DNA of 64,000 bases, taken from Escherichia coli. Lineage in GTDB: Bacteria > Pseudomonadota > Gammaproteobacteria > Enterobacterales > Enterobacteriaceae. The translations under genes were made by a program, and so were the position numbers. Shown piece by piece: positions 1 to 54,670 of this stretch (its first letter is position 1; each line of letters starts with the position of its first letter). The DNA lies in assembly GCF_003334335.1 (NCBI RefSeq), contig NZ_QOWQ01000011.1; one strand, 5' to 3'. The notes beneath the pieces are model-generated. The model searched no databases and was not told the DNA's origin. It saw only the letters and a list, made by a program, of their open reading frames with translations.

Positions 1-456
1 AGTACGGATTTGGGGACGAAAAACACATCGTCGTTTGATTACGGAACCAAATCCACGAATAACACCGGGGCGCATACCCATAGTATTAGCGGGACTGCAA
101 ATAGTGCCGGTGCGCACCAACACAAGAGTTCCGGTGCATTTGGTGGCACGAACACGAGCATTTTCCCTAATGGTTATACCGCGATTTCAAATCTAAGCGC
201 GGGGATTATGAGCACAACAAGCGGTAGTGGCCAGACTCGTAATGCAGGGAAGACATCATCAGATGGTGCTCATACCCACTCGCTGTCCGGCACTGCTGCA
301 AGCGCAGGCGCACATGCACATACTGTCGGTATTGGTGCTCATACGCACTCCGTTGCGATTGGCTCACACGGACACACCATCACCGTTAACGCTGCTGGTA
401 ACGCGGAAAACACCGTCAAAAACATCGCATTTAACTATATTGTGAGGCTTGCATAA
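1..456 (+). CDS. stf: Phage side tail fibre protein, C-terminal part (5' end outside window)
   Basis: Open frame from base 1 with no upstream stop. Gly/Ser/Thr-rich with repeated GAHTHS / GAHAH / GSHGH motifs, like the His-x-His motifs of T4 gp37 and lambda Stf distal fibres. Its stop overlaps the start of the next gene. Confidence 0.7.
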
Positions 457-1037
457 TGGCATTCAGAATGAGTGAACAACCACGGACCATAAAAATTTAT
501 AATCTGCTGGCCGGAACTAATGAATTTATTGGTGAAGGTGATGCATATATTCCGCCTCATACAGGTCTGCCAGCAAACAGTACCGATATTGCACCGCCAG
601 ATATTCCGGCTGGCTTCGTGGCTGTTTTCAACAGTGATGAGTCATCGTGGCATCTTGTTGAAGACCATCGGGGTAAAACAGTTTATGACGTGGCATCAGG
701 GGACGCGTTATTTATTTCTGAACTCGGCTCATTACCGGAAAATGTTACCTGGTTATCCCCGGAAGGGGAGTTTCAGAAGTGGAACGGCACAGCCTGGGTG
801 AAGGATACGGAAGCAGAAAAACTGTTCCGGATCCGGGAGGTGGAAGAAACAAAAAACAGCCTGATGCAGGTAGCCAGTGAGCATATAGCGCCGCTTCAGG
901 ATGCTGTGGATCTGGAAATCGCAACGGAGGAAGAAACCTTGTTGCTGGAAGCCTGGAAAAAGTATCGGGTATTGCTGAACCGTGTTGATACGTCAACTGC
1001 ACAGGATATTGAATGGCCAGTAGCACCTATAGGGTAA
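456..1037 (+). CDS. tfa: Phage tail fibre assembly protein
   Basis: 193 aa ORF starting at the ATG that overlaps the fibre gene stop (TAATG). The sequence resembles Tfa-family chaperones of lambdoid and P2-like phages. Confidence 0.75.
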
Positions 1038-1895
1038 ATTCGTAATGATTACCTAAATACGTTATTCTTTTGTTCAAAAAGTGATTTTGCTATAGATAGG
1101 GAGTATGTTCTTGGATTAAGAATAAAAATCGCCATGAAAGAGCTTCATGGCGAGTACATAAACGTACAAAATGTGATGAAAGTAGAGTGGCGTAAGCCAC
1201 TATATTAAGATGTGACAATAGCGAAGAAAAGTAAATAACATTTTATGGACGTTTAATTGTTAATTATAAAAACTAGAGTGCCCGATATTGTTTACCTTGC
1301 TTTAAAATAATGTACTCAAACCAAATTTTTGAGCTAAAAGCTCAAATAATATAAATGCAATAATAATGTTTAATAAGACAATTAGCTTGCTTTGTATTTT
1401 CATTTCGGAATACTGTTAAGTAACTTTGATGACCCTAACAATAGATCGGAATTTTCTTAGAGTCAATGGTCACTGTTTTTGCTTGCAAAGCAAATGTTTT
1501 GGTGGTTATAAGTTGTCTTAATATAGTCACGCATGCAACTTGTTCCATGCGGAGATTAAAGATTGGAATATAACGCTAAGATGGAATTAAATTACATTTG
1601 CAATAATCAATTTATTATTACTCAATAATTACCGATATTATTATTGTAAATTAATCATTAGAGTGCAAAAAGAAATGTAACGGCAAAATAAGAGGACGAT
1701 AGCTGAGAAAAAAGCGTGCTTTCCCAATCTGGGGCAAATCACGTCTGAATGACACCTGAAAACAGGTGGTAGCCTCAAGAAGGCTTGGAATATTCTTCTT
1801 TAATGTTATGTAATTCATTGATTTTTCGTGTACGATTTAAAGACATTTATTCCAAGAAAAATTTTTAACTCTTTGATTTTTCGACTCTGTATCAT

Positions 1896-1957
1896 CGGTC
1901 TCGAAAACCGGAGTAGGGGCAACTCTACCGGGGGTTCAAATCCCCCTCTCTCCGCCA
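1896..1957 (+). tRNA. 3' fragment (about 62 nt) of tRNA-Ser(CGA) (serU-like): anticodon stem, variable arm, T arm and acceptor 3' strand ending CCA. Not a complete tRNA.
   Basis: CGGTCTCGAAAACCGGAGTAGGGGCAACTCTACCGGGGGTTCAAATCCCCCTCTCTCCGCCA matches the 3' two-thirds of E. coli serU as I recall it. The 5' acceptor strand and D arm are missing; upstream sequence is unrelated AT-rich DNA. Confidence 0.7.
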
Positions 1958-2541
1958 CTTTATCAATGACTTATCTCCCGACTTCCCGCCTTGCTTTTCC
2001 TAAACAGAACAATCGTAGAATATTCTTGAAGGGTTAGATCGTCACTGTTTTCTGTTCGATACTGTGACATTCAGCACTTGATTCGCTATGGATCTGACAG
2101 GAAGGTTTTGAGCGAAAATTTGCAGTTATTCAGTCGTTTTCTTATCGGTCACCATTATTCTTTTAGACATTGATCCTACAAAGCTGCCGCAAAGTTGGTG
2201 GTGGGAACTGAAGTTGCGTAGAGAAGGGGTCAATACCCGGAGGCAAACATGGGCTGGCAAAAGTGTAGCGGTATTAGGCGCAGCTATTTAGCCTAGTTAT
2301 GTTTTATGAAAACTTGATATCATATAAGTGTCTTACTTATTGGCTGTAAATAAGTTTTTCCTAAGGAATTGTTTCTTGAGTATCATTTGTAACTGTAACG
2401 GAATTTATAATCCTTTGCTTTATTGTTACGGTATTTTTTATCACACCCTATTTTTTATGTGGTTTTTTATACTGAAGTTTGGCAAAGTGAACTTTATATG
2501 CATATACTTCATCCTGGTTTCAGTTAAGTTGGGTGGATGAT

Positions 2542-3285
2542 ATGGCAACTACATGTTCAGTTATATTGATTTTGGAGTCCTTTGATGTTTATTTCGGAAA
2601 AGAGAGTGTGTTTCTGGAGAGAGGTTCATCTGTACTTGTCGACTCTAGCTCTAGAGATTTTTTCCTGACATATCCTGAAAGAGTGATAGTGGCGGATTTT
2701 GGCGCTGAGTTTATTAGTCGCTATTTGAAAGCTAATAACTTAAGGGATATTTCTGATTGTAGGGAATATCCATCTTATTTAAAAATAAACTTTGCTGACT
2801 TCAGTTTAATTAAAGGATTAATTAGTTGGGCTAATCACTGTGCTGAATACATAGAAATTTTTGATGAGTCTATTGCTTTTACATGTCTCTCTGCATTTTC
2901 TTCTGAAAAACAATTTGGAGTATTTCTGTTTGAATGTTTGAAAAGCACAGGGGCTAAAGTTAAAACGATTATTCATACGGATTTATCTGCACCATGGCGT
3001 CTTAAGGATATATCATCAAGATTATATCTCAGCGAAAGTTTACTAAAGAGGAAATTGAAAGAAGAGGGGGTATCATTCAGTAAGATCATACTTGATGAGA
3101 GGATGCAAATGGCTGAATATTTACTCAGCACTCGTTGTTATCCTATTAGTAAAGTAGCTAAGGTCTGTGGTTATGCCAGTGTCTCATACTTTACTTATGT
3201 ATTTAGACGTTATTTTGGTGTTTCTCCAAGTCAATACTCTCAGAGCAGTTCAGAAAGTAAAATTCTTACTCACCAGGGAATCTGA
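2542..3285 (+). CDS. AraC/XylS-family transcriptional regulator, AppY/EnvY/Rns-like, low GC
   Basis: C-terminal helix-turn-helix region (ISKVAKVCGYASVSYFTYVFRRYFGVSPSQY) and overall similarity to prophage-borne AppY. ATG at 2542 preferred over the GTG at 2533 used by the ORF track. Confidence 0.75.
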   Translation: MATTCSVILILESFDVYFGKESVFLERGSSVLVDSSSRDFFLTYPERVIVADFGAEFISRYLKANNLRDISDCREYPSYLKINFADFSLIKGLISWANHCAEYIEIFDESIAFTCLSAFSSEKQFGVFLFECLKSTGAKVKTIIHTDLSAPWRLKDISSRLYLSESLLKRKLKEEGVSFSKIILDERMQMAEYLLSTRCYPISKVAKVCGYASVSYFTYVFRRYFGVSPSQYSQSSSESKILTHQGI

Positions 3286-3289
3286 TCAT

Positions 3290-3790
3290 TGTTCTTGCCC
3301 CCTTATTTCCAGACAGGGGGTGTATCTTAAGTTAACGTTACCCGCTGACGTCGATATTCTCGCGGAGAGCGATAACCCAACGCACTGTGCGGATGGTTTT
3401 CATTGTAATGTTCGATCGCCACTGCAAGATTATGCAATGCCGTTCTTACATTCGGTTTCGGCATGAACGCGATGTAGTCTTCCTTCATCGTTTTCACGAA
3501 CCTTTCTGCCATTCCATTACTCTGAGGACTGCTGATTGCCGTTGTGCAGGGCTCCAGATTCAACTCTCTGGCGAACTGCCATGTTTCATGCGCTCTATAC
3601 GCTGAACCGTTATCTGTCAGCCACTGGATGGACTGTTCCGGTACTTTATCGCCAAAGCGTTTTTCTATCGCTCCTAACATGACATCCTGCACTGTCGCTT
3701 TATCGTAACCTCCCGTGCTTGCGGCCCAGTCTATGGCTTCACGATCGCAACAGTCCAGGGCGAACGTAACACGCAGTTTTGAATCGCCAC
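3290..3790 (-). mobile_element. IS3-family (IS2-like) insertion sequence remnant: one terminal inverted repeat plus the 3' part of the transposase gene
   Basis: Terminus TTGCCCCCTTATTTCCAGACA at about 3291-3311 resembles the IS2 right inverted repeat. The adjacent minus-strand ORF encodes a DDE transposase C-terminus. The element is cut off near 3780-3790 by a second IS end. Confidence 0.55.
3327..3692 (-). pseudogene. Truncated IS3-family transposase OrfB (C-terminal about 120 aa only)
   Basis: Translation ends ...[20 protein letters not shown], the conserved C-terminal signature of IS3-family DDE transposases. The N-terminal catalytic region is absent. Confidence 0.6.
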
Positions 3791-4080
3791 GGGTTTAACA
3801 GACACCTCAGAGTCATTTAAGATGGCTTAAAGAGAGGTGCCCATGAGCGGTAAGCGTTATCCCGAAGAGTTTAAAACTGAAGCAGTCAAACAGGTTGTTG
3901 ATCGCGGTTATTCTGTTGCCAGCGTTGCAACACGTCTCGATATCACCACCCACAGCCTTTATGCCTGGATAAAGAAGTACGGTCCGGATTACTCCACTTT
4001 TTCATCAAGCCAATCCGCCCACCACTGCATCATTTCTCTGCGCTTATCGAGATACTGAGCGTGGTTGTAAATTCAGCTAA
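3781..4080 (+). mobile_element. Second IS3-family insertion sequence remnant: left end plus truncated orfA
   Basis: TGAATCGCCACGGGTTTAACAGACACC resembles IS3-family left ends (TGA...GTTTAAC.GACAC, as in IS600). It is followed by an OrfA-like helix-turn-helix ORF and ends abruptly before the tI/sib hairpin. Confidence 0.5.
3837..4058 (+). pseudogene. Truncated IS3-family transposase OrfA (helix-turn-helix domain intact, C-terminus degenerate)
   Basis: N-terminus MSGKRYPEEFKTEAVKQVVDRGYSVASVATRLDITTHSLYAWIKKYG is a typical OrfA helix-turn-helix. No leucine zipper, frameshift window or orfB follows. Confidence 0.6.
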
Positions 4081-4088
4081 CCCAGTGT

Positions 4089-4136
4089 GTTGACAAAAAA
4101 TTAGCGCAAGAAGACAAAAAAATCACCTTGCGCTAA
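4089..4136 (-). terminator. Lambda tI/sib-like hairpin adjacent to the att P arm
   Basis: 10-bp inverted repeat TTAGCGCAAG / CTTGCGCTAA with a 16-nt loop, followed on the minus strand by TTTTTTG. It is the reverse complement of the lambda sib/tI sequence as I recall it. Confidence 0.55.
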
Positions 4137-4138
4137 TG

Positions 4139-4300
4139 CTCTGTTACAGGTCACTAATACCATCTAAGTGGTTGATTCATAGTGACTGGATATGTTGTGT
4201 TTTGTAGCATTATGTAGTCTATTTTTTAGACTGAATAAATTATAAGTCGTTGATATTAATTGTTTTTACCGTTTCACATTCAACTTTTTTATACTAACTT
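4139..4300. other. attR: Prophage attR (lambda-type P arm, core CTTTTTTATACTAA at about 4284-4297, bacterial B' arm)
   Basis: TCTGTTACAGGTCACTAATACCATCTAAGT... closely matches the lambda P arm; it diverges toward the core. Core and downstream CTTGAGCGAAACGGGAAGG match the E. coli attB side. Confidence 0.75.
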
Positions 4301-4387
4301 GAGCGAAACGGGAAGGTAAAAAGACAAAAAGTTGTTTTTAATACCTTTAAGTGATACCAGATGGCATTGCGCCATCTGGCAGAGTGA

Positions 4388-4864
4388 TTAACTAAACATC
4401 GCAGTAATCGAGGCGCTTGCCAGAGAGTGGAAATGAACGTTAAACCCGACCATCGCGCCGCTGGCACCTTCATCGACATCAATACGTTCTATATCCAGCG
4501 CGTGAACGGTAAAAATGTAGCGATGAGTTTCGCCTTTCGGCGGTGCTGCGCCATCGTACCCGGTTTTACCAAAGTCGGTACGCGTCTGCAAAACGCCGTC
4601 TGGCATTGCTACCAGACCAGAGCCAAACCCTTGCGGTAATACGCGGGTATCAGCGGGTAAGTTAACAACTACCCAGTGCCACCAGCCGGAGCCGGTTGGC
4701 GCATCCGGGTCGTAGCAGGTGACAACAAAACTTTTCGTTCCCGCAGGAACATCATCCCACGCCAGATGCGGTGAAATATTATCGCCATCGTAACCCATGC
4801 CGTTAAAGACATGACGATGCGGCAATTTATCGCCATCGCGCAGATCGTTACTGATGAGTTTCAT
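4388..4864 (-). CDS. ybhB: PEBP-family protein YbhB
   Basis: 158 aa ORF recognised as K-12 YbhB; position next to bioA. Confidence 0.9.
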   Translation of the reverse strand: MKLISNDLRDGDKLPHRHVFNGMGYDGDNISPHLAWDDVPAGTKSFVVTCYDPDAPTGSGWWHWVVVNLPADTRVLPQGFGSGLVAMPDGVLQTRTDFGKTGYDGAAPPKGETHRYIFTVHALDIERIDVDEGASGAMVGFNVHFHSLASASITAMFS

Positions 4865-4922
4865 GAACCCTCCTTTCTTGTTTGCAGAAAGTGTAGCCAG
4901 AAACCCTCACGCGGACTTCTCG

Positions 4923-6212
4923 TTATTGGCAAAAAAATGTTTCATCCTGTACCGCGCGGTTAACCGCTGCGGTCAGACGCTGCAACTGTTGCGGGAGAAT
5001 AATATAGGGCGGCATCAGGTAAATCAGTTTGCCAAAAGGCCGGATCCAGACACCCTGTTCGACAAAGAATTTTTGCAGCGCCGCCATATTCACCGGATGA
5101 GTGGTTTCGACCACGCCAATGGCCCCCAGTACGCGCACATCGGCAACCATTTCGGCATCACGGGCGGGGGCAAGTTGCTCGCGCAGCTGTACTTCAATAT
5201 CCGCCACCTGTTGCTGCCAGTCGCCAGATTCGAGAATCGCCAGGCTGGCGTTTGCTGCCGCGCAGGCCAGCGGATTGCCCATAAAAGTTGGCCCATGCAT
5301 AAAGCAACCGGCTTCACCGTTACTGATGGTTTCTGCAACCTCGCGCGTGGTGAGTGTGGCGGAAAGGGTCATTGTGCCGCCGGTTAAGGCTTTACCGAGG
5401 CACAAAATGTCCGGCGCGATTTCTGCATGTTCACAGGCAAACAGTTTCCCGGTACGACCAAATCCAGTGGCGATCTCGTCGGCAATCAGCAAGATACCTT
5501 CGCGATCGCATATTTTGCGGATTCGTTTTAACCATTCCGGATGGTACATGCGCATCCCGCCTGCGCCCTGGACAATCGGCTCAATGATCACCGCCGCGAT
5601 TTCATGACGATGCGCCGCCATCAGGCGGGCAAAGCCCACCATATCGCGCTCATCCCATTCGCCATCCATGGGGCTTTGCGGGGCGGGAGCAAACAGGTTT
5701 TCTGGCAGGTAGCCTTTCCACAGACTGTGCATTGAGTTATCCGGATCGCACACCGACATCGCGCCAAAGGTATCGCCATGATAACCATTGCGGAAGGTCA
5801 GAAAACGCTGGCGCGCTTCGCCTTTGGCTTGCCAGTACTGCAACGCCATTTTCATCGCCACTTCCACCGCTACGGAACCGGAGTCCGCGAGAAAAACGCA
5901 CTCCAGCGGTTGCGGCGTCATCGCCACCAGTTTGCGGCACAGCTCAATGGCTGGCGCATGGGTGATACCGCCAAACATCACATGCGACATGGCATCAATT
6001 TGCGACTTCATCGCCGCATTAAGCTGCGGGTGATTGTAGCCGTGGATCGCCGCCCACCAGGACGACATACCGTCAACCAGGCGTCTGCCGTCAGACAAAA
6101 TCAGCTCGCAACCTTCGGCGCTCACCACCGGATAAACCGGCAGAGGGGAGGTCATGGATGTGTATGGGTGCCAGATATGGCGTTGGTCAAAGGCAAGATC
6201 GTCCGTTGTCAT
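4923..6212 (-). CDS. bioA: Adenosylmethionine-8-amino-7-oxononanoate aminotransferase
   Basis: Start set at [14 protein letters not shown] (429 aa); the ORF track extends 37 codons upstream into the bio operator. PLP aminotransferase class III. Confidence 0.93.
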
Positions 6213-12540: not shown

Positions 12541-12637
12541 CCTGATGCGCTACGCTTATCAGGCCTACATTTTCTCCGCAATATATTGAATTTGCGCGGT
12601 TTGTAGGCCGGATAAGGCGTTCACGCCGCATCCGGCA
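12541..12637. repeat. Composite REP unit (two opposed REP palindromes around a shared spacer)
   Basis: CCTGATGCGCTACGCTTATCAGGCCTAC ... CAATATATTGAATTTGC ... GTAGGCCGGATAAGGCGTTCACGCCGCATCCGGCA. Confidence 0.85.
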
Positions 12638-13823: not shown

Positions 13824-13883
13824 AAAGTGTGGATGGTAAAAATCTCATTTACACGCTAGTATCGGCATAACCACTAAACACTC

Positions 13884-13998
13884 TAGCCTCTGCACCTGGG
13901 TCAACTGATACGGTGCTTTGGCCGTGACAATGCTCGTAAAGATTGCCACCAGGGCGAAGGAAGAAATGACTTCGCCTCCCGTATCTGGAAAGGTGTAC
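13884..13998 (+). ncRNA. Moco (molybdenum cofactor) riboswitch-like leader of moaA; boundaries approximate
   Basis: A conserved Moco RNA motif is known directly upstream of moaA in E. coli. Placed by position; I did not check the fold. Confidence 0.5.
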
Positions 13999-14988
13999 AT
14001 GGCTTCACAACTGACTGATGCATTTGCGCGTAAGTTTTACTACTTGCGCCTGTCGATTACCGATGTGTGTAACTTTCGTTGCACCTACTGCCTGCCGGAT
14101 GGCTACAAACCGAGCGGCGTCACCAATAAAGGCTTTCTTACCGTCGATGAAATTCGCCGGGTTACGCGCGCCTTCGCCAGTCTGGGCACCGAAAAAGTGC
14201 GCCTGACAGGAGGAGAGCCGTCTTTACGCCGCGACTTTACCGATATCATCGCCGCTGTGCGGGAAAACGACGCTATCCGCCAGATTGCGGTCACAACCAA
14301 TGGTTACCGTCTGGAACGCGATGTGGCGAGCTGGCGCGATGCGGGACTTACTGGCATTAACGTCAGTGTCGACAGTCTGGACGCCCGCCAGTTTCACGCT
14401 ATTACCGGGCAGGATAAATTCAACCAGGTCATGGCAGGGATTGATGCTGCATTTGAGGCCGGTTTTGAGAAGGTCAAAGTCAATACCGTGCTGATGCGTG
14501 ATGTTAATCATCACCAGCTCGACACCTTTCTGAACTGGATCCAGCATCGCCCTATCCAGCTGCGTTTCATCGAACTGATGGAAACGGGCGAGGGCAGCGA
14601 GCTCTTCCGTAAGCATCACATCTCTGGTCAGGTTCTGCGTGACGAGCTACTGCGTCGCGGCTGGATCCACCAATTACGTCAACGCAGCGACGGTCCCGCG
14701 CAAGTCTTTTGCCATCCAGATTACGCCGGAGAGATTGGCCTTATCATGCCGTATGAAAAAGACTTCTGCGCCACTTGCAACCGCCTGCGCGTTTCCTCCA
14801 TTGGTAAACTCCATCTCTGCCTGTTTGGTGAAGGCGGCGTTAACCTGCGCGATCTGCTGGAAGACGATACCCAGCAACAGGCGCTGGAAGCGCGTATTTC
14901 AGCGGCGCTGCGGGAGAAGAAACAGACCCATTTCCTGCATCAAAACAACACCGGTATTACGCAAAACTTATCGTACATTGGCGGCTAA
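13999..14988 (+). CDS. moaA: GTP 3',8-cyclase (radical SAM)
   Basis: Start set at [31 protein letters not shown] (329 aa). Confidence 0.95.
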
Positions 14989-29244: not shown

Positions 29245-29341
<97 letters not shown>

Positions 29342-34494: not shown

Positions 34495-34617
34495 CTGGAC
34501 GTAGCGTAAACGCCTGATCCGTCCAACGGTTCGGATTTTGTAGGCCTGATAAGACGCGGTAGCGTCGCATCAGGCATCTGTTGCCGGATGCGGCGTAAAC
34601 GCCTTATCCGTCCTACG
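34495..34617. repeat. REP cluster between ybiC and ybiJ
   Basis: Several REP palindromes (GTAGGCCTGATAAGACGCGGTAGCGTCGCATCAGGC, CCGGATGCGGCGTAAACGCCTTATCCG). Confidence 0.8.
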
Positions 34618-54571: not shown

Positions 54572-54670
54572 CCTGATGCGCTACGCTTATCAGGCCTACG
54601 CAGTACCTGCAATATATTGAATCTGCAGGACTTTGTAGGCCGGATAAGGCGTTAACGCCGCATCAGGCAT
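54572..54670. repeat. Composite REP unit, third copy in the same orientation as 12541-12637
   Basis: Same architecture and spacer (CAATATATTGAATCTGC). Confidence 0.85.

What the first reader, a model, noticed from the sequence alone, without database searches (positions are those of the whole stretch)
1..456. Histidine-rich repeat motifs in the tail fibre tip
The visible C-terminal 150 residues contain at least six His-x-His motifs (GAHTHS x3, GAHQH, GAHAH, GSHGH) in a Gly/Ser/Thr-rich context. Comparable motifs coordinate metal ions in the T4 long tail fibre tip. The tip usually determines receptor specificity, so this is the likely host-range determinant of the prophage.
Basis: partly seen in the sequence, partly recalled or inferred. 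Interest (0 to 1): 0.3.

Follow-up and report, generated by a model that had tools for sequence, protein, structure and literature searches.

The report
Known iron-binding needle of lambda-type side fibre
The His-x-His motifs are real and match the well-known iron-binding histidines in the needle-shaped tip of the phage T4/lambda tail-fibre family, but this exact tip is already known (E. coli K-12 Qin remnant, phage mEp332) and here probably sits in a dead prophage, so the finding is ordinary.

Summary
Window 1-456 encodes the last 151 residues of a lambdoid side tail fibre (Stf). It has six His-x-His motifs, and all 12 histidines lie in them (1 of 100,000 shuffles reaches six).

The only solved structure it matches is the T4 gp37 tip, 2XGF (E 3.7e-33, end to end). 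Motif spacing is identical to T4 (32, 14, [loop], 14, 9, 9). A seventh motif lies 9 residues before the window starts, matching T4's seven iron sites. Across 29 distinct tips the histidines are 90-100% conserved. The 47 residues between motifs 2 and 3 of the window are only 24% conserved and vary in length; they correspond to T4's receptor-binding tip subdomain.

So the motifs are the conserved metal-clamped scaffold, and the loop between them is the likely specificity determinant. The chaperone gene tfa follows directly (93% identical to lambda Tfa).

The tip is 99% identical to the E. coli K-12 Qin stfQ remnant and to phage mEp332. In the three close relatives whose prophage I read in full, the att-lambda prophage lacks all head and tail genes. 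Junction searches place most other close relatives in the same classes. "Host-range determinant of the prophage" is therefore only partly right.

Verdict: already known, low interest.

The parts
1..456 (+). 3' end of the side tail fibre gene stf: last 151 codons plus TAA stop. The gene start lies outside the window (987 aa in the closest genome, PEC1009).
   Evidence: Only PDB hit is 2XGF (T4 gp37 tip), E 3.7e-33, query 1-151 aligned to gp37 891-1026. phrog_295 tail fibre protein, E 1.9e-60.
1..123 (+). Outward (descending) strand of the needle stem, residues 1-41, equivalent to T4 gp37 891-931. Carries HxH at nt 73-81 (H25/H27 = T4 H915/H917) and nt 115-123 (H39/H41 = T4 H929/H931).
   Evidence: Mean identity to the window residue is 84% across 29 tips.
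124..264 (+). Variable loop between the second and third visible HxH motifs (residues 42-88). Residues 42-84 (nt 124-252) correspond to the T4 tip subdomain 932-959 and are the inferred receptor-binding head. The segment is 15 residues longer than in T4 and has no His.
   Evidence: Only 24% mean identity across 29 tips. Motif-to-motif spacing across this loop ranges 35-53 residues. The DNA is unrelated to lambda here, although the flanks are near-identical.
265..453 (+). Returning (ascending) strand of the needle stem and the C-terminal end (residues 89-151, equivalent to T4 964-1026). Carries HxH at nt 271-279, 313-321, 340-348 and 367-375 (= T4 H966/968, H980/982, H989/991, H998/1000), then the family-wide ending ...[15 protein letters not shown].
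   Evidence: Mean identity 92%. The last two HxH motifs are invariant.
456..1037 (+). tfa, the tail fibre assembly chaperone (193 aa). Its ATG overlaps the stf stop by one base (TAATG).
   Evidence: 93% identical to lambda Tfa; 30% identical to T4 gp38 (E 9e-21); phrog_105, the PHROG recorded for gp38 in the T4 record. The C-terminal part matches the Mu Tfa structure 5YVQ (E 1e-8).
4283..4297 (+). attR core (ACTTTTTTATACTAA, 1 mismatch to the lambda att core). Marks the right end of the prophage next to ybhB. Context only, not part of the fibre.
   Evidence: 0 matches expected by chance. Searches show the prophage lying between ybhC and ybhB.

Best explanation
Window 1-456 is the distal end of a lambda-type side tail fibre (Stf). 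It belongs to the same fibre-tip family as the T4 long tail fibre protein gp37.

Inferred from the T4 structure: three chains run out along a thin six-stranded needle, form a small head at the far pole, and run back. Each His-x-His motif from each of the three chains gives two imidazoles to one metal ion (Fe2+ in T4). Seven octahedral metal sites are thus stacked along the needle axis and hold the trimer together. Six of these sites are encoded inside the window and the seventh just upstream.

The histidines are therefore structural. Receptor specificity lies in the hypervariable 43-47-residue head between the second and third visible motifs. The downstream Tfa protein is the chaperone that folds and trimerises this tip.

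Shown here: homology, motif register, the conservation pattern, the chaperone pairing and the genomic context. Inferred: the trimeric state, the metal and its identity, and the receptor. OmpC and/or LPS is plausible by family, but the T4 contact residues are not conserved.

In the closest genomes the gene lies in a decayed lambdoid prophage at att-lambda. That prophage has lost its immunity, replication, head and tail genes. The fibre there is most likely an unused relic, at most a recombination donor for incoming lambdoid phages.
For: Homology and register:
- the only PDB match is 2XGF (T4 gp37 785-1026), E 3.7e-33, aligned end to end.
- HxH start positions give spacings 32, 14, [52], 14, 9, 9 in this fibre against 32, 14, [37], 14, 9, 9 in T4. 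Both have seven motifs; lambda has eight.
- (PMC6957217): there are seven coordinated iron atoms along the T4 needle. H929/H931 are iron ligands and alanine substitution is lethal. The stem is 882-931 plus 960-1009, and the tip subdomain 932-959 carries the LPS/OmpC binding patches.

Conservation:
- in 29 distinct tips the His columns are 90-100% conserved and the arms 84% and 92%, but the inter-motif head only 24%, with variable length.
- H84, H86, H205, H207, H214 and H216 are invariant in 27 sequences.
- four weak matches to the Pfam PF03335 Phage_fiber repeat. PF03335 and PF07484 are precomputed on homologues.

Chaperone:
- Tfa is 93% identical to lambda Tfa, 30% to gp38, and in the same PHROG (105).

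Family background:
- (PMC12617516): lambda Stf shares sequence and structure with the gp37 tip and binds OmpC.

Where else this tip occurs:
- phage mEp332, whose record gives K-12 MG1655 as host, carries a 99.3% identical tip with the same tfa, AraC regulator and IS-remnant module.
- 99% identical to the K-12 Qin stfQ remnant.

Prophage context:
- cryptic prophage in RM10410, 1332KP and PEC1009.
- junction searches recover the truncating junctions in further close relatives.
- these are the closest genomes (99.5-99.9% over 25 kb).
Against: - No direct evidence here for trimerisation or metal binding. The only structure prediction available (monomer AF2) failed, with pLDDT 49.5.
- The T4 receptor-contact residues (I933, N937, G938, G940, G942, G943, S947, Y949) are not recognisably conserved in the longer head, so the receptor is unknown.
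- The window does not show the upstream part of the gene or the prophage, and no complete genome is 100% identical over 25 kb.
- More distant genomes (OkiPb01701, 99.1%) carry a nearly complete prophage of the same family at the same site. A functional context for the window's own copy is therefore not strictly excluded.
- Only 31 of the 128 genomes that hold this module share the two junctions I counted.
Confidence: 0.9

Rival explanations
1. One reading: the fibre tip is the working host-range determinant of an inducible prophage in this genome.
For: In PEC1009, 1332KP and EC416 the stf ORF is intact (987 aa) and tfa is intact. OkiPb01701 has an almost complete prophage of the same family at att-lambda. 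Phage mEp332 carries the same tip.
Against: All three close genomes read in full lack portal, capsid, tail tube, tape measure and J, and also repressor and replication genes. The closest-genome list overlaps the genomes recovered by the junction searches: 12 genomes have stf truncated against a terminase remnant and 19 share the recT::ren deletion. In lambda the side fibre does not change plating on ompC+ versus ompC mutant hosts; it speeds adsorption 10-30 fold, and the central fibre J binds LamB.
Confidence: 0.08
2. The His-x-His motifs are themselves the receptor-recognition element, for example displayed iron mimicking a siderophore complex so that the fibre docks on an iron-uptake receptor (the 'Trojan horse' idea).
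For: The hypothesis exists in the literature for HxH-bearing fibres (abstract of PMC11705849, listed). The motifs are numerous and conserved.
Against: [quoted passage not shown] That the irons are buried on the trimer axis is my recollection of the 2XGF paper, which I could not open. The motifs are near-invariant across fibres whose variable part is the head, which is the opposite of what a specificity element should show. The known receptors of the family are OmpC and LPS.
Confidence: 0.02
3. The motifs are a chance or low-complexity feature of a Gly/Ser/Thr/Ala-rich sequence with no specific role.
For: The composition is strongly biased: 57% G+S+T+A. Individual Pfam repeat matches are weak, with i-E 0.006-0.22.
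Against: Only 1 of 100,000 shuffles reaches six motifs. The register is identical to T4. E is 3.7e-33 to a solved structure. The histidines are near-invariant in 29 tips.
Confidence: 0.01

Closest known systems
Phage T4 long tail fibre distal subunit gp37, receptor-binding tip (PDB 2XGF, residues 785-1026), with chaperone gp38
   Same: End-to-end alignment of window residues 1-151 with gp37 891-1026 (E 3.7e-33). Seven HxH motifs with identical spacing on both arms. The last 30 residues are nearly identical. A chaperone gene lies immediately downstream, in the same PHROG 105.
   Different: The head between the arms is 15 residues longer and essentially unrelated in sequence. The rest of the protein is a lambdoid Stf (Ala/Ser-rich shaft with a prophage tail fibre N-terminal domain), not a T4 gp37 shaft. 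It belongs to a siphovirus-type prophage, where the fibre is accessory. Tfa is only 30% identical to gp38.
Phage lambda (Ur-lambda) side tail fibre Stf (orf-401/orf-314 in lambda PaPa) with Tfa
   Same: Same gene order (lom, stf, tfa) and the same att site. Tfa is 93% identical. The DNA from the fourth visible HxH to the end of tfa is nearly identical. The C-terminal sequence is the same.
   Different: Lambda has eight HxH motifs (one extra 9-residue unit) and an extra FDYGTK repeat. Its head sequence is unrelated at the DNA level. The lambda head binds OmpC; the receptor of this head is unknown.
E. coli K-12 cryptic prophage Qin: stfQ remnant plus tfaQ
   Same: 149 of 151 residues identical. 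The head-coding DNA is 100% identical. It is likewise a fibre remnant in a defective lambdoid prophage next to nohA.
   Different: Different chromosomal site. Qin keeps only 233 codons and has the pinQ invertase after tfaQ. Here an AT-rich gap and an AraC-family regulator follow tfa.
Escherichia phage mEp332 (PV340541) side tail fibre
   Same: 99.3% identical tip, with the same downstream module of tfa, a 1.5 kb gap, an AraC-type regulator and a transposase remnant. This is the complete-phage counterpart of the window's prophage arm.
   Different: The mEp332 fibre is 678 aa against 987 aa in PEC1009 (a shorter shaft). mEp332 is a complete phage genome with J and the other tail genes.

Membership tests
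T4 gp37 / lambda Stf fibre-tip family (needle domain D11 of 2XGF) | Significant sequence similarity over the whole needle, not just the motifs | tested here: met
   E 3.7e-33, query 1-151 aligned to chain 107-242; 447 phage records cover at least 80% of the query, including T4 and its relatives.
T4 gp37 / lambda Stf fibre-tip family (needle domain D11 of 2XGF) | His-x-His motifs in the register of the seven iron sites (three on the outward arm, four on the return arm) | tested here: met
   spacings 32, 14, [52], 14, 9, 9 against T4 32, 14, [37], 14, 9, 9. Six motifs lie in the window and the seventh is upstream in identical genomes. H39/H41 align with T4 H929/H931.
T4 gp37 / lambda Stf fibre-tip family (needle domain D11 of 2XGF) | Variable tip subdomain inserted between the two stem arms | tested here: met
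   residues 42-88 are 24% conserved against 84-92% for the arms. Loop spacing ranges 35-53. One search gives the T4 subdomain limits.
T4 gp37 / lambda Stf fibre-tip family (needle domain D11 of 2XGF) | Cognate gp38/Tfa-type chaperone gene directly downstream | tested here: met
   tfa at 456-1037, 93% identical to lambda Tfa, 30% to gp38, phrog_105.
T4 gp37 / lambda Stf fibre-tip family (needle domain D11 of 2XGF) | Homotrimer with metal ions (Fe2+) octahedrally bound by six histidines per site | not testable with these tools
   Only monomer prediction is offered. It gave pLDDT 49.5 and pTM 0.18 and says nothing either way.
T4 gp37 / lambda Stf fibre-tip family (needle domain D11 of 2XGF) | Binds OmpC and/or LPS through the head | not testable with these tools
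   T4 contact residues are not conserved in the alignment. No experimental data were found for mEp332; the one paper that names it is a qPCR method paper, judged from its title and abstract, and I did not open it.
Pfam PF03335 Phage_fiber (phage tail fibre repeat) | Matches to the 14-residue repeat model | tested here: inconclusive
   four matches covering four of the six motifs, with i-E 0.0062, 0.019, 0.17 and 0.22, none at or below 0.001. PF03335 is precomputed on most homologues.
Working host-range determinant of a viable prophage | Same prophage encodes a complete virion (terminase, portal, capsid, tail tube, tape measure, J) | tested here: not met
   these genes are absent in RM10410, 1332KP and PEC1009 (the closest, 99.9%). 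Searches count 12 and 19 genomes with the respective deletion junctions. This was tested in relatives only, because the window itself does not reach upstream.

The most novel reading that the evidence does not exclude
The intact 987-codon stf plus tfa cassette has survived in a prophage that independently lost its morphogenesis genes by at least three different deletions. It might be kept by selection rather than by chance. One possibility is a ready-made tip-swap donor for superinfecting lambdoid phages, through the near-identical flanks on either side of the variable head. Another is a host-expressed protein that occupies a surface receptor. The evidence does not exclude this. The recombination route has already been shown in the laboratory for Rac and Qin fibre genes (PMC3945230), and 12 genomes have already truncated the gene, which argues against strong selection.
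Probability: 0.07. Interest if true: 0.3.

Novelty: already known. Interest (0 to 1): 0.08.

Why it matters
It matters little beyond correct annotation. The iron-clamped needle of the gp37/Stf family was solved in 2010. The T4-lambda fibre homology and the interchangeability of Tfa and gp38 date from the late 1980s. This exact tip is in the E. coli K-12 reference genome (Qin) and in 994 of 5,426 complete E. coli genomes.

The useful correction is conceptual. In this family, HxH motifs mark the conserved scaffold, and the specificity element is the loop between them. Near-identical flanks make that loop an exchangeable cassette. A fibre gene at the edge of a prophage also does not show that the prophage is alive.

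Tried and rejected
- AlphaFold2 monomer prediction of the last 242 residues, with a 27-sequence alignment, gave pLDDT 49.5 and pTM 0.18. That is unusable, as expected for an intertwined metal-bound trimer, so I ran no fold search.
- Tandem Repeats Finder found no DNA repeat in 1-1100, so the motifs are not a recent DNA duplication.
- NCBIfam has no model for either the fibre end or Tfa.
- ARAGORN found no tRNA in 1-6000. I had suspected one because of a GGFEPP-type translation in an ORF at 1815-1958.
- The primary structure paper for 2XGF could not be opened under the PMC id I recalled. Iron-site facts are therefore cited from PMC6957217.
- I tried to pin down the source genome with a 25 kb query. 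The best match was 99.9% (PEC1009, EC416) and none was identical, so the state of the gene upstream of position 1 stays inferred.
- The junction counts (12 + 19 genomes) explain only part of the 128 genomes that hold the module. At least one more distant genome has a near-complete prophage.
- Chance or low-complexity origin of the motifs is rejected.

Full report
**1. What is in the sequence**

Window 1-456, frame 1, is open for 151 codons and ends in TAA. The other five frames are broken by 3-11 stops. The window begins inside the gene.

They start at residues 25, 39, 91, 105, 114 and 123 (nt 73-81, 115-123, 271-279, 313-321, 340-348, 367-375). They contain every one of the 12 histidines of the segment. 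Shuffling the 151 residues 100,000 times gave a mean of 0.87 motifs, and only one shuffle reached six. Gly, Ser, Thr and Ala make up 57% of the residues. No DNA tandem repeat underlies the pattern.

**2. What it is**

A phmmer search of all PDB chains returns a single hit: 2XGF, the receptor-binding tip of phage T4 long tail fibre protein gp37. E is 3.7e-33, and window residues 1-151 align end to end with gp37 residues 891-1026.

I recovered the rest of the gene from genomes identical to the window over window 1-2500. A seventh motif (KSHTHS) lies nine residues before the window starts.
- Motif start positions in the full 987-residue protein are 829, 861, 875, 927, 941, 950 and 959.
- In T4 gp37 they are 883, 915, 929, 966, 980, 989 and 998.
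- The spacings are therefore 32, 14, [52], 14, 9, 9 against 32, 14, [37], 14, 9, 9. They are identical except across one loop.
- Lambda Stf has the same plan with one extra 9-residue unit.

PMC6957217 states that seven iron atoms are coordinated along the T4 needle. H929 and H931 are iron ligands whose replacement by alanine abolishes plaque formation. Domain D11 consists of a stem (882-931 and 960-1009) with a tip subdomain (932-959) inserted into it, and the tip carries the LPS and OmpC binding patches. In the alignment, window H39/H41 are T4 H929/H931.

The mapping onto the window is:
- residues 1-41: the outward stem arm;
- residues 42-84: the tip subdomain (43 residues against 28 in T4);
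- residue 85 onwards: the return arm.

**3. Conservation pattern**

I aligned 29 distinct tips: the window, T4, lambda and 26 database homologues that span the whole segment.
- The 12 His columns are 90-100% conserved.
- The outward arm is 84% and the return arm 92% identical to the window residue.
- Residues 42-88 are only 24% identical.
- The motif-to-motif distance across that loop ranges from 35 to 53 residues.

A second alignment of 27 sequences gives invariant histidines at six positions and an invariant C-terminal ...ENTVKNxAFNYIVR. At the DNA level the window, K-12 Qin, lambda and mEp332 are nearly identical from the fourth visible motif through tfa. Lambda is unrelated across the head. 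This is the classic mosaic that lets homologous recombination swap heads.

The histidines are therefore the conserved scaffold, and the loop between them is the variable, presumably receptor-binding, part. Pfam's Phage_fiber repeat (PF03335) matches four of the motifs weakly. PHROG 295 (tail fibre protein) matches at 1.9e-60.

**4. The partner gene**

The ORF at 456-1037 overlaps the stf stop by one base. It is 93% identical to lambda Tfa and 30% identical to T4 gp38 (E 9e-21). It falls in phrog_105, the PHROG recorded for gp38 in the T4 record. Its C-terminal part matches the solved Mu tail fibre assembly protein 5YVQ. The fibre-tip plus chaperone module is thus complete in the window.

**5. 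How it most likely works**

By homology with 2XGF, three chains form a six-stranded needle. Each HxH motif of each chain gives two imidazoles to one axial metal ion, making seven sites in the full protein. The head at the distal pole contacts the receptor, and Tfa folds and trimerises the tip.

The fold family, the motif register and the chaperone pairing are shown here. The trimer, the metal (iron in T4) and the receptor are inferred. The T4 residues that contact LPS and OmpC are not recognisably conserved in this longer head. OmpC or LPS is a family-based guess only. For lambda Stf, OmpC binding and homology to gp37 are stated in PMC12617516.

**6. Context: where this tip occurs**

The prophage arm in the window runs from position 1 to an attR core at 4283-4297, next to ybhB and bioA. 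This is the classical lambda attachment site.

Phage mEp332 is deposited as a complete genome with K-12 MG1655 as host. It carries a 99.3% identical tip and the same downstream module of tfa, a 1.5 kb gap, an AraC-type regulator and a transposase remnant.

The tip is also 149/151 identical to the stfQ remnant of the K-12 cryptic prophage Qin. The head-coding DNA occurs at 95% identity or better in 994 of 5,426 complete E. coli genomes. So the tip is neither new nor rare.

**7. Context: the state of the prophage**

The closest complete genomes over 25 kb are PEC1009 and EC416 (99.9%), followed by about twenty at 99.5-99.6%. I read three of them in full, and in each the att-lambda prophage is a roughly 20 kb remnant.
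- PEC1009: the terminase-to-J region is deleted between nohD and a lom remnant. The region between a recT remnant and a ren remnant, where immunity and replication genes would lie, is missing, and no repressor or replication gene is annotated. stf is intact at 987 codons.
- 1332KP: ylcI is followed directly by stf.
- RM10410: a truncated terminase gene abuts a 400-codon stf remnant.

The terminase-stf junction is in 12 genomes and the recT::ren junction in 19. A more distant genome (OkiPb01701, 99.1%) has a near-complete prophage of the same family at the same site, with only the tape measure gene interrupted by an IS. This shows what the ancestor looked like.

The window does not reach upstream, and no genome is identical to it. 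Its own state is therefore inferred: probably cryptic.

Even in a live lambda, the side fibres speed adsorption 10-30 fold but do not change plating on ompC+ versus ompC mutant hosts, and infection proceeds through the central fibre J binding LamB.

**8.

The step from 'motifs' to 'host-range determinant of the prophage' needs three corrections.
- The determinant is the loop between the motifs, not the motifs.
- Stf is an accessory fibre.
- The prophage is most likely dead.

**9. Novelty and what did not work**

Everything here is already known: the 2XGF structure, the gp37/Stf/Tfa/gp38 relationship (discussed in PMC9659904), the Qin remnant, and recombination between lambda and fibre genes of defective prophages (PMC3945230).

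The monomer AF2 model was unusable (pLDDT 49.5). NCBIfam has no model for these two proteins. The primary 2XGF paper could not be opened under the id I recalled.

The least ordinary reading that remains open is that the intact stf-tfa cassette is retained by selection in a decaying prophage. I give this about 7%.

Noticed in passing
window 799-997 (+): The Rfam family IS009 (annotated as an sRNA gene) matches at 218 bits (gathering score 117), entirely inside the tfa coding sequence. The family may model a tfa gene fragment from cryptic prophages rather than an independent RNA.
   Followed up: no
window 1038-2532: A 1.5 kb AT-rich gap (29-39% GC) with no ORF of 60 aa or more lies between tfa and the AraC-family gene. 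Phage mEp332 has a gap of the same length. A strong terminator-like hairpin lies on the minus strand at 1153-1129 (11-pair stem plus T run). Its function is unknown.
   Followed up: partly
window 2533-3285 (+): A 250-aa AraC-family regulator sits inside the prophage arm. Its best NCBIfam match is YdeO at 148.7 bits, far below the 348-bit cut-off. It matches phrog_1450 (unknown function) at 1.4e-94. Phage mEp332 also carries it, so it is phage cargo. It recalls AppY in the K-12 prophage DLP12 (from memory, not tested).
   Followed up: partly
window 3327-4058 and 4283-4297: Remnants of an IS3-family element (integrase-core fragment on the minus strand, transposase N-terminal fragment on the plus strand) lie just inside the prophage end. 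The attR core ACTTTTTTATACTAA is at 4283-4297, next to ybhB.
   Followed up: partly
L004 12117-13199 (PEC1009; outside the window, same prophage): The cryptic prophage carries a porin gene annotated OmpC between quuD and the lysis genes. The prophage's own side fibre belongs to the OmpC-binding fibre family. A prophage-encoded porin could alter the surface receptor display of the lysogen. This was not examined.
   Followed up: no
L001 19254-19258; L002 16984-17493; L004 7086-8093: There are three different deletion end points of the morphogenesis region in otherwise near-identical prophages: terminase::stf, ylcI-stf and nohD::lom. All spare the stf 3' end and tfa. The homologue list also contains many chimeric ORFs in which a fibre C-terminus is fused to unrelated prophage genes such as terminase, ParB, Lom and tail tube.
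   Followed up: partly
window 12561-12602, 29265-29307, 54592-54634 (-) and 34543-34613 (-): Rfam hits to ES036 (CssrF) and naRNA4 (CssrE) fall in the chromosomal part of the window. They may be repeated intergenic elements, but I did not look at them. The Moco riboswitch at 13867-14011 lies upstream of moaA, as expected.
   Followed up: no
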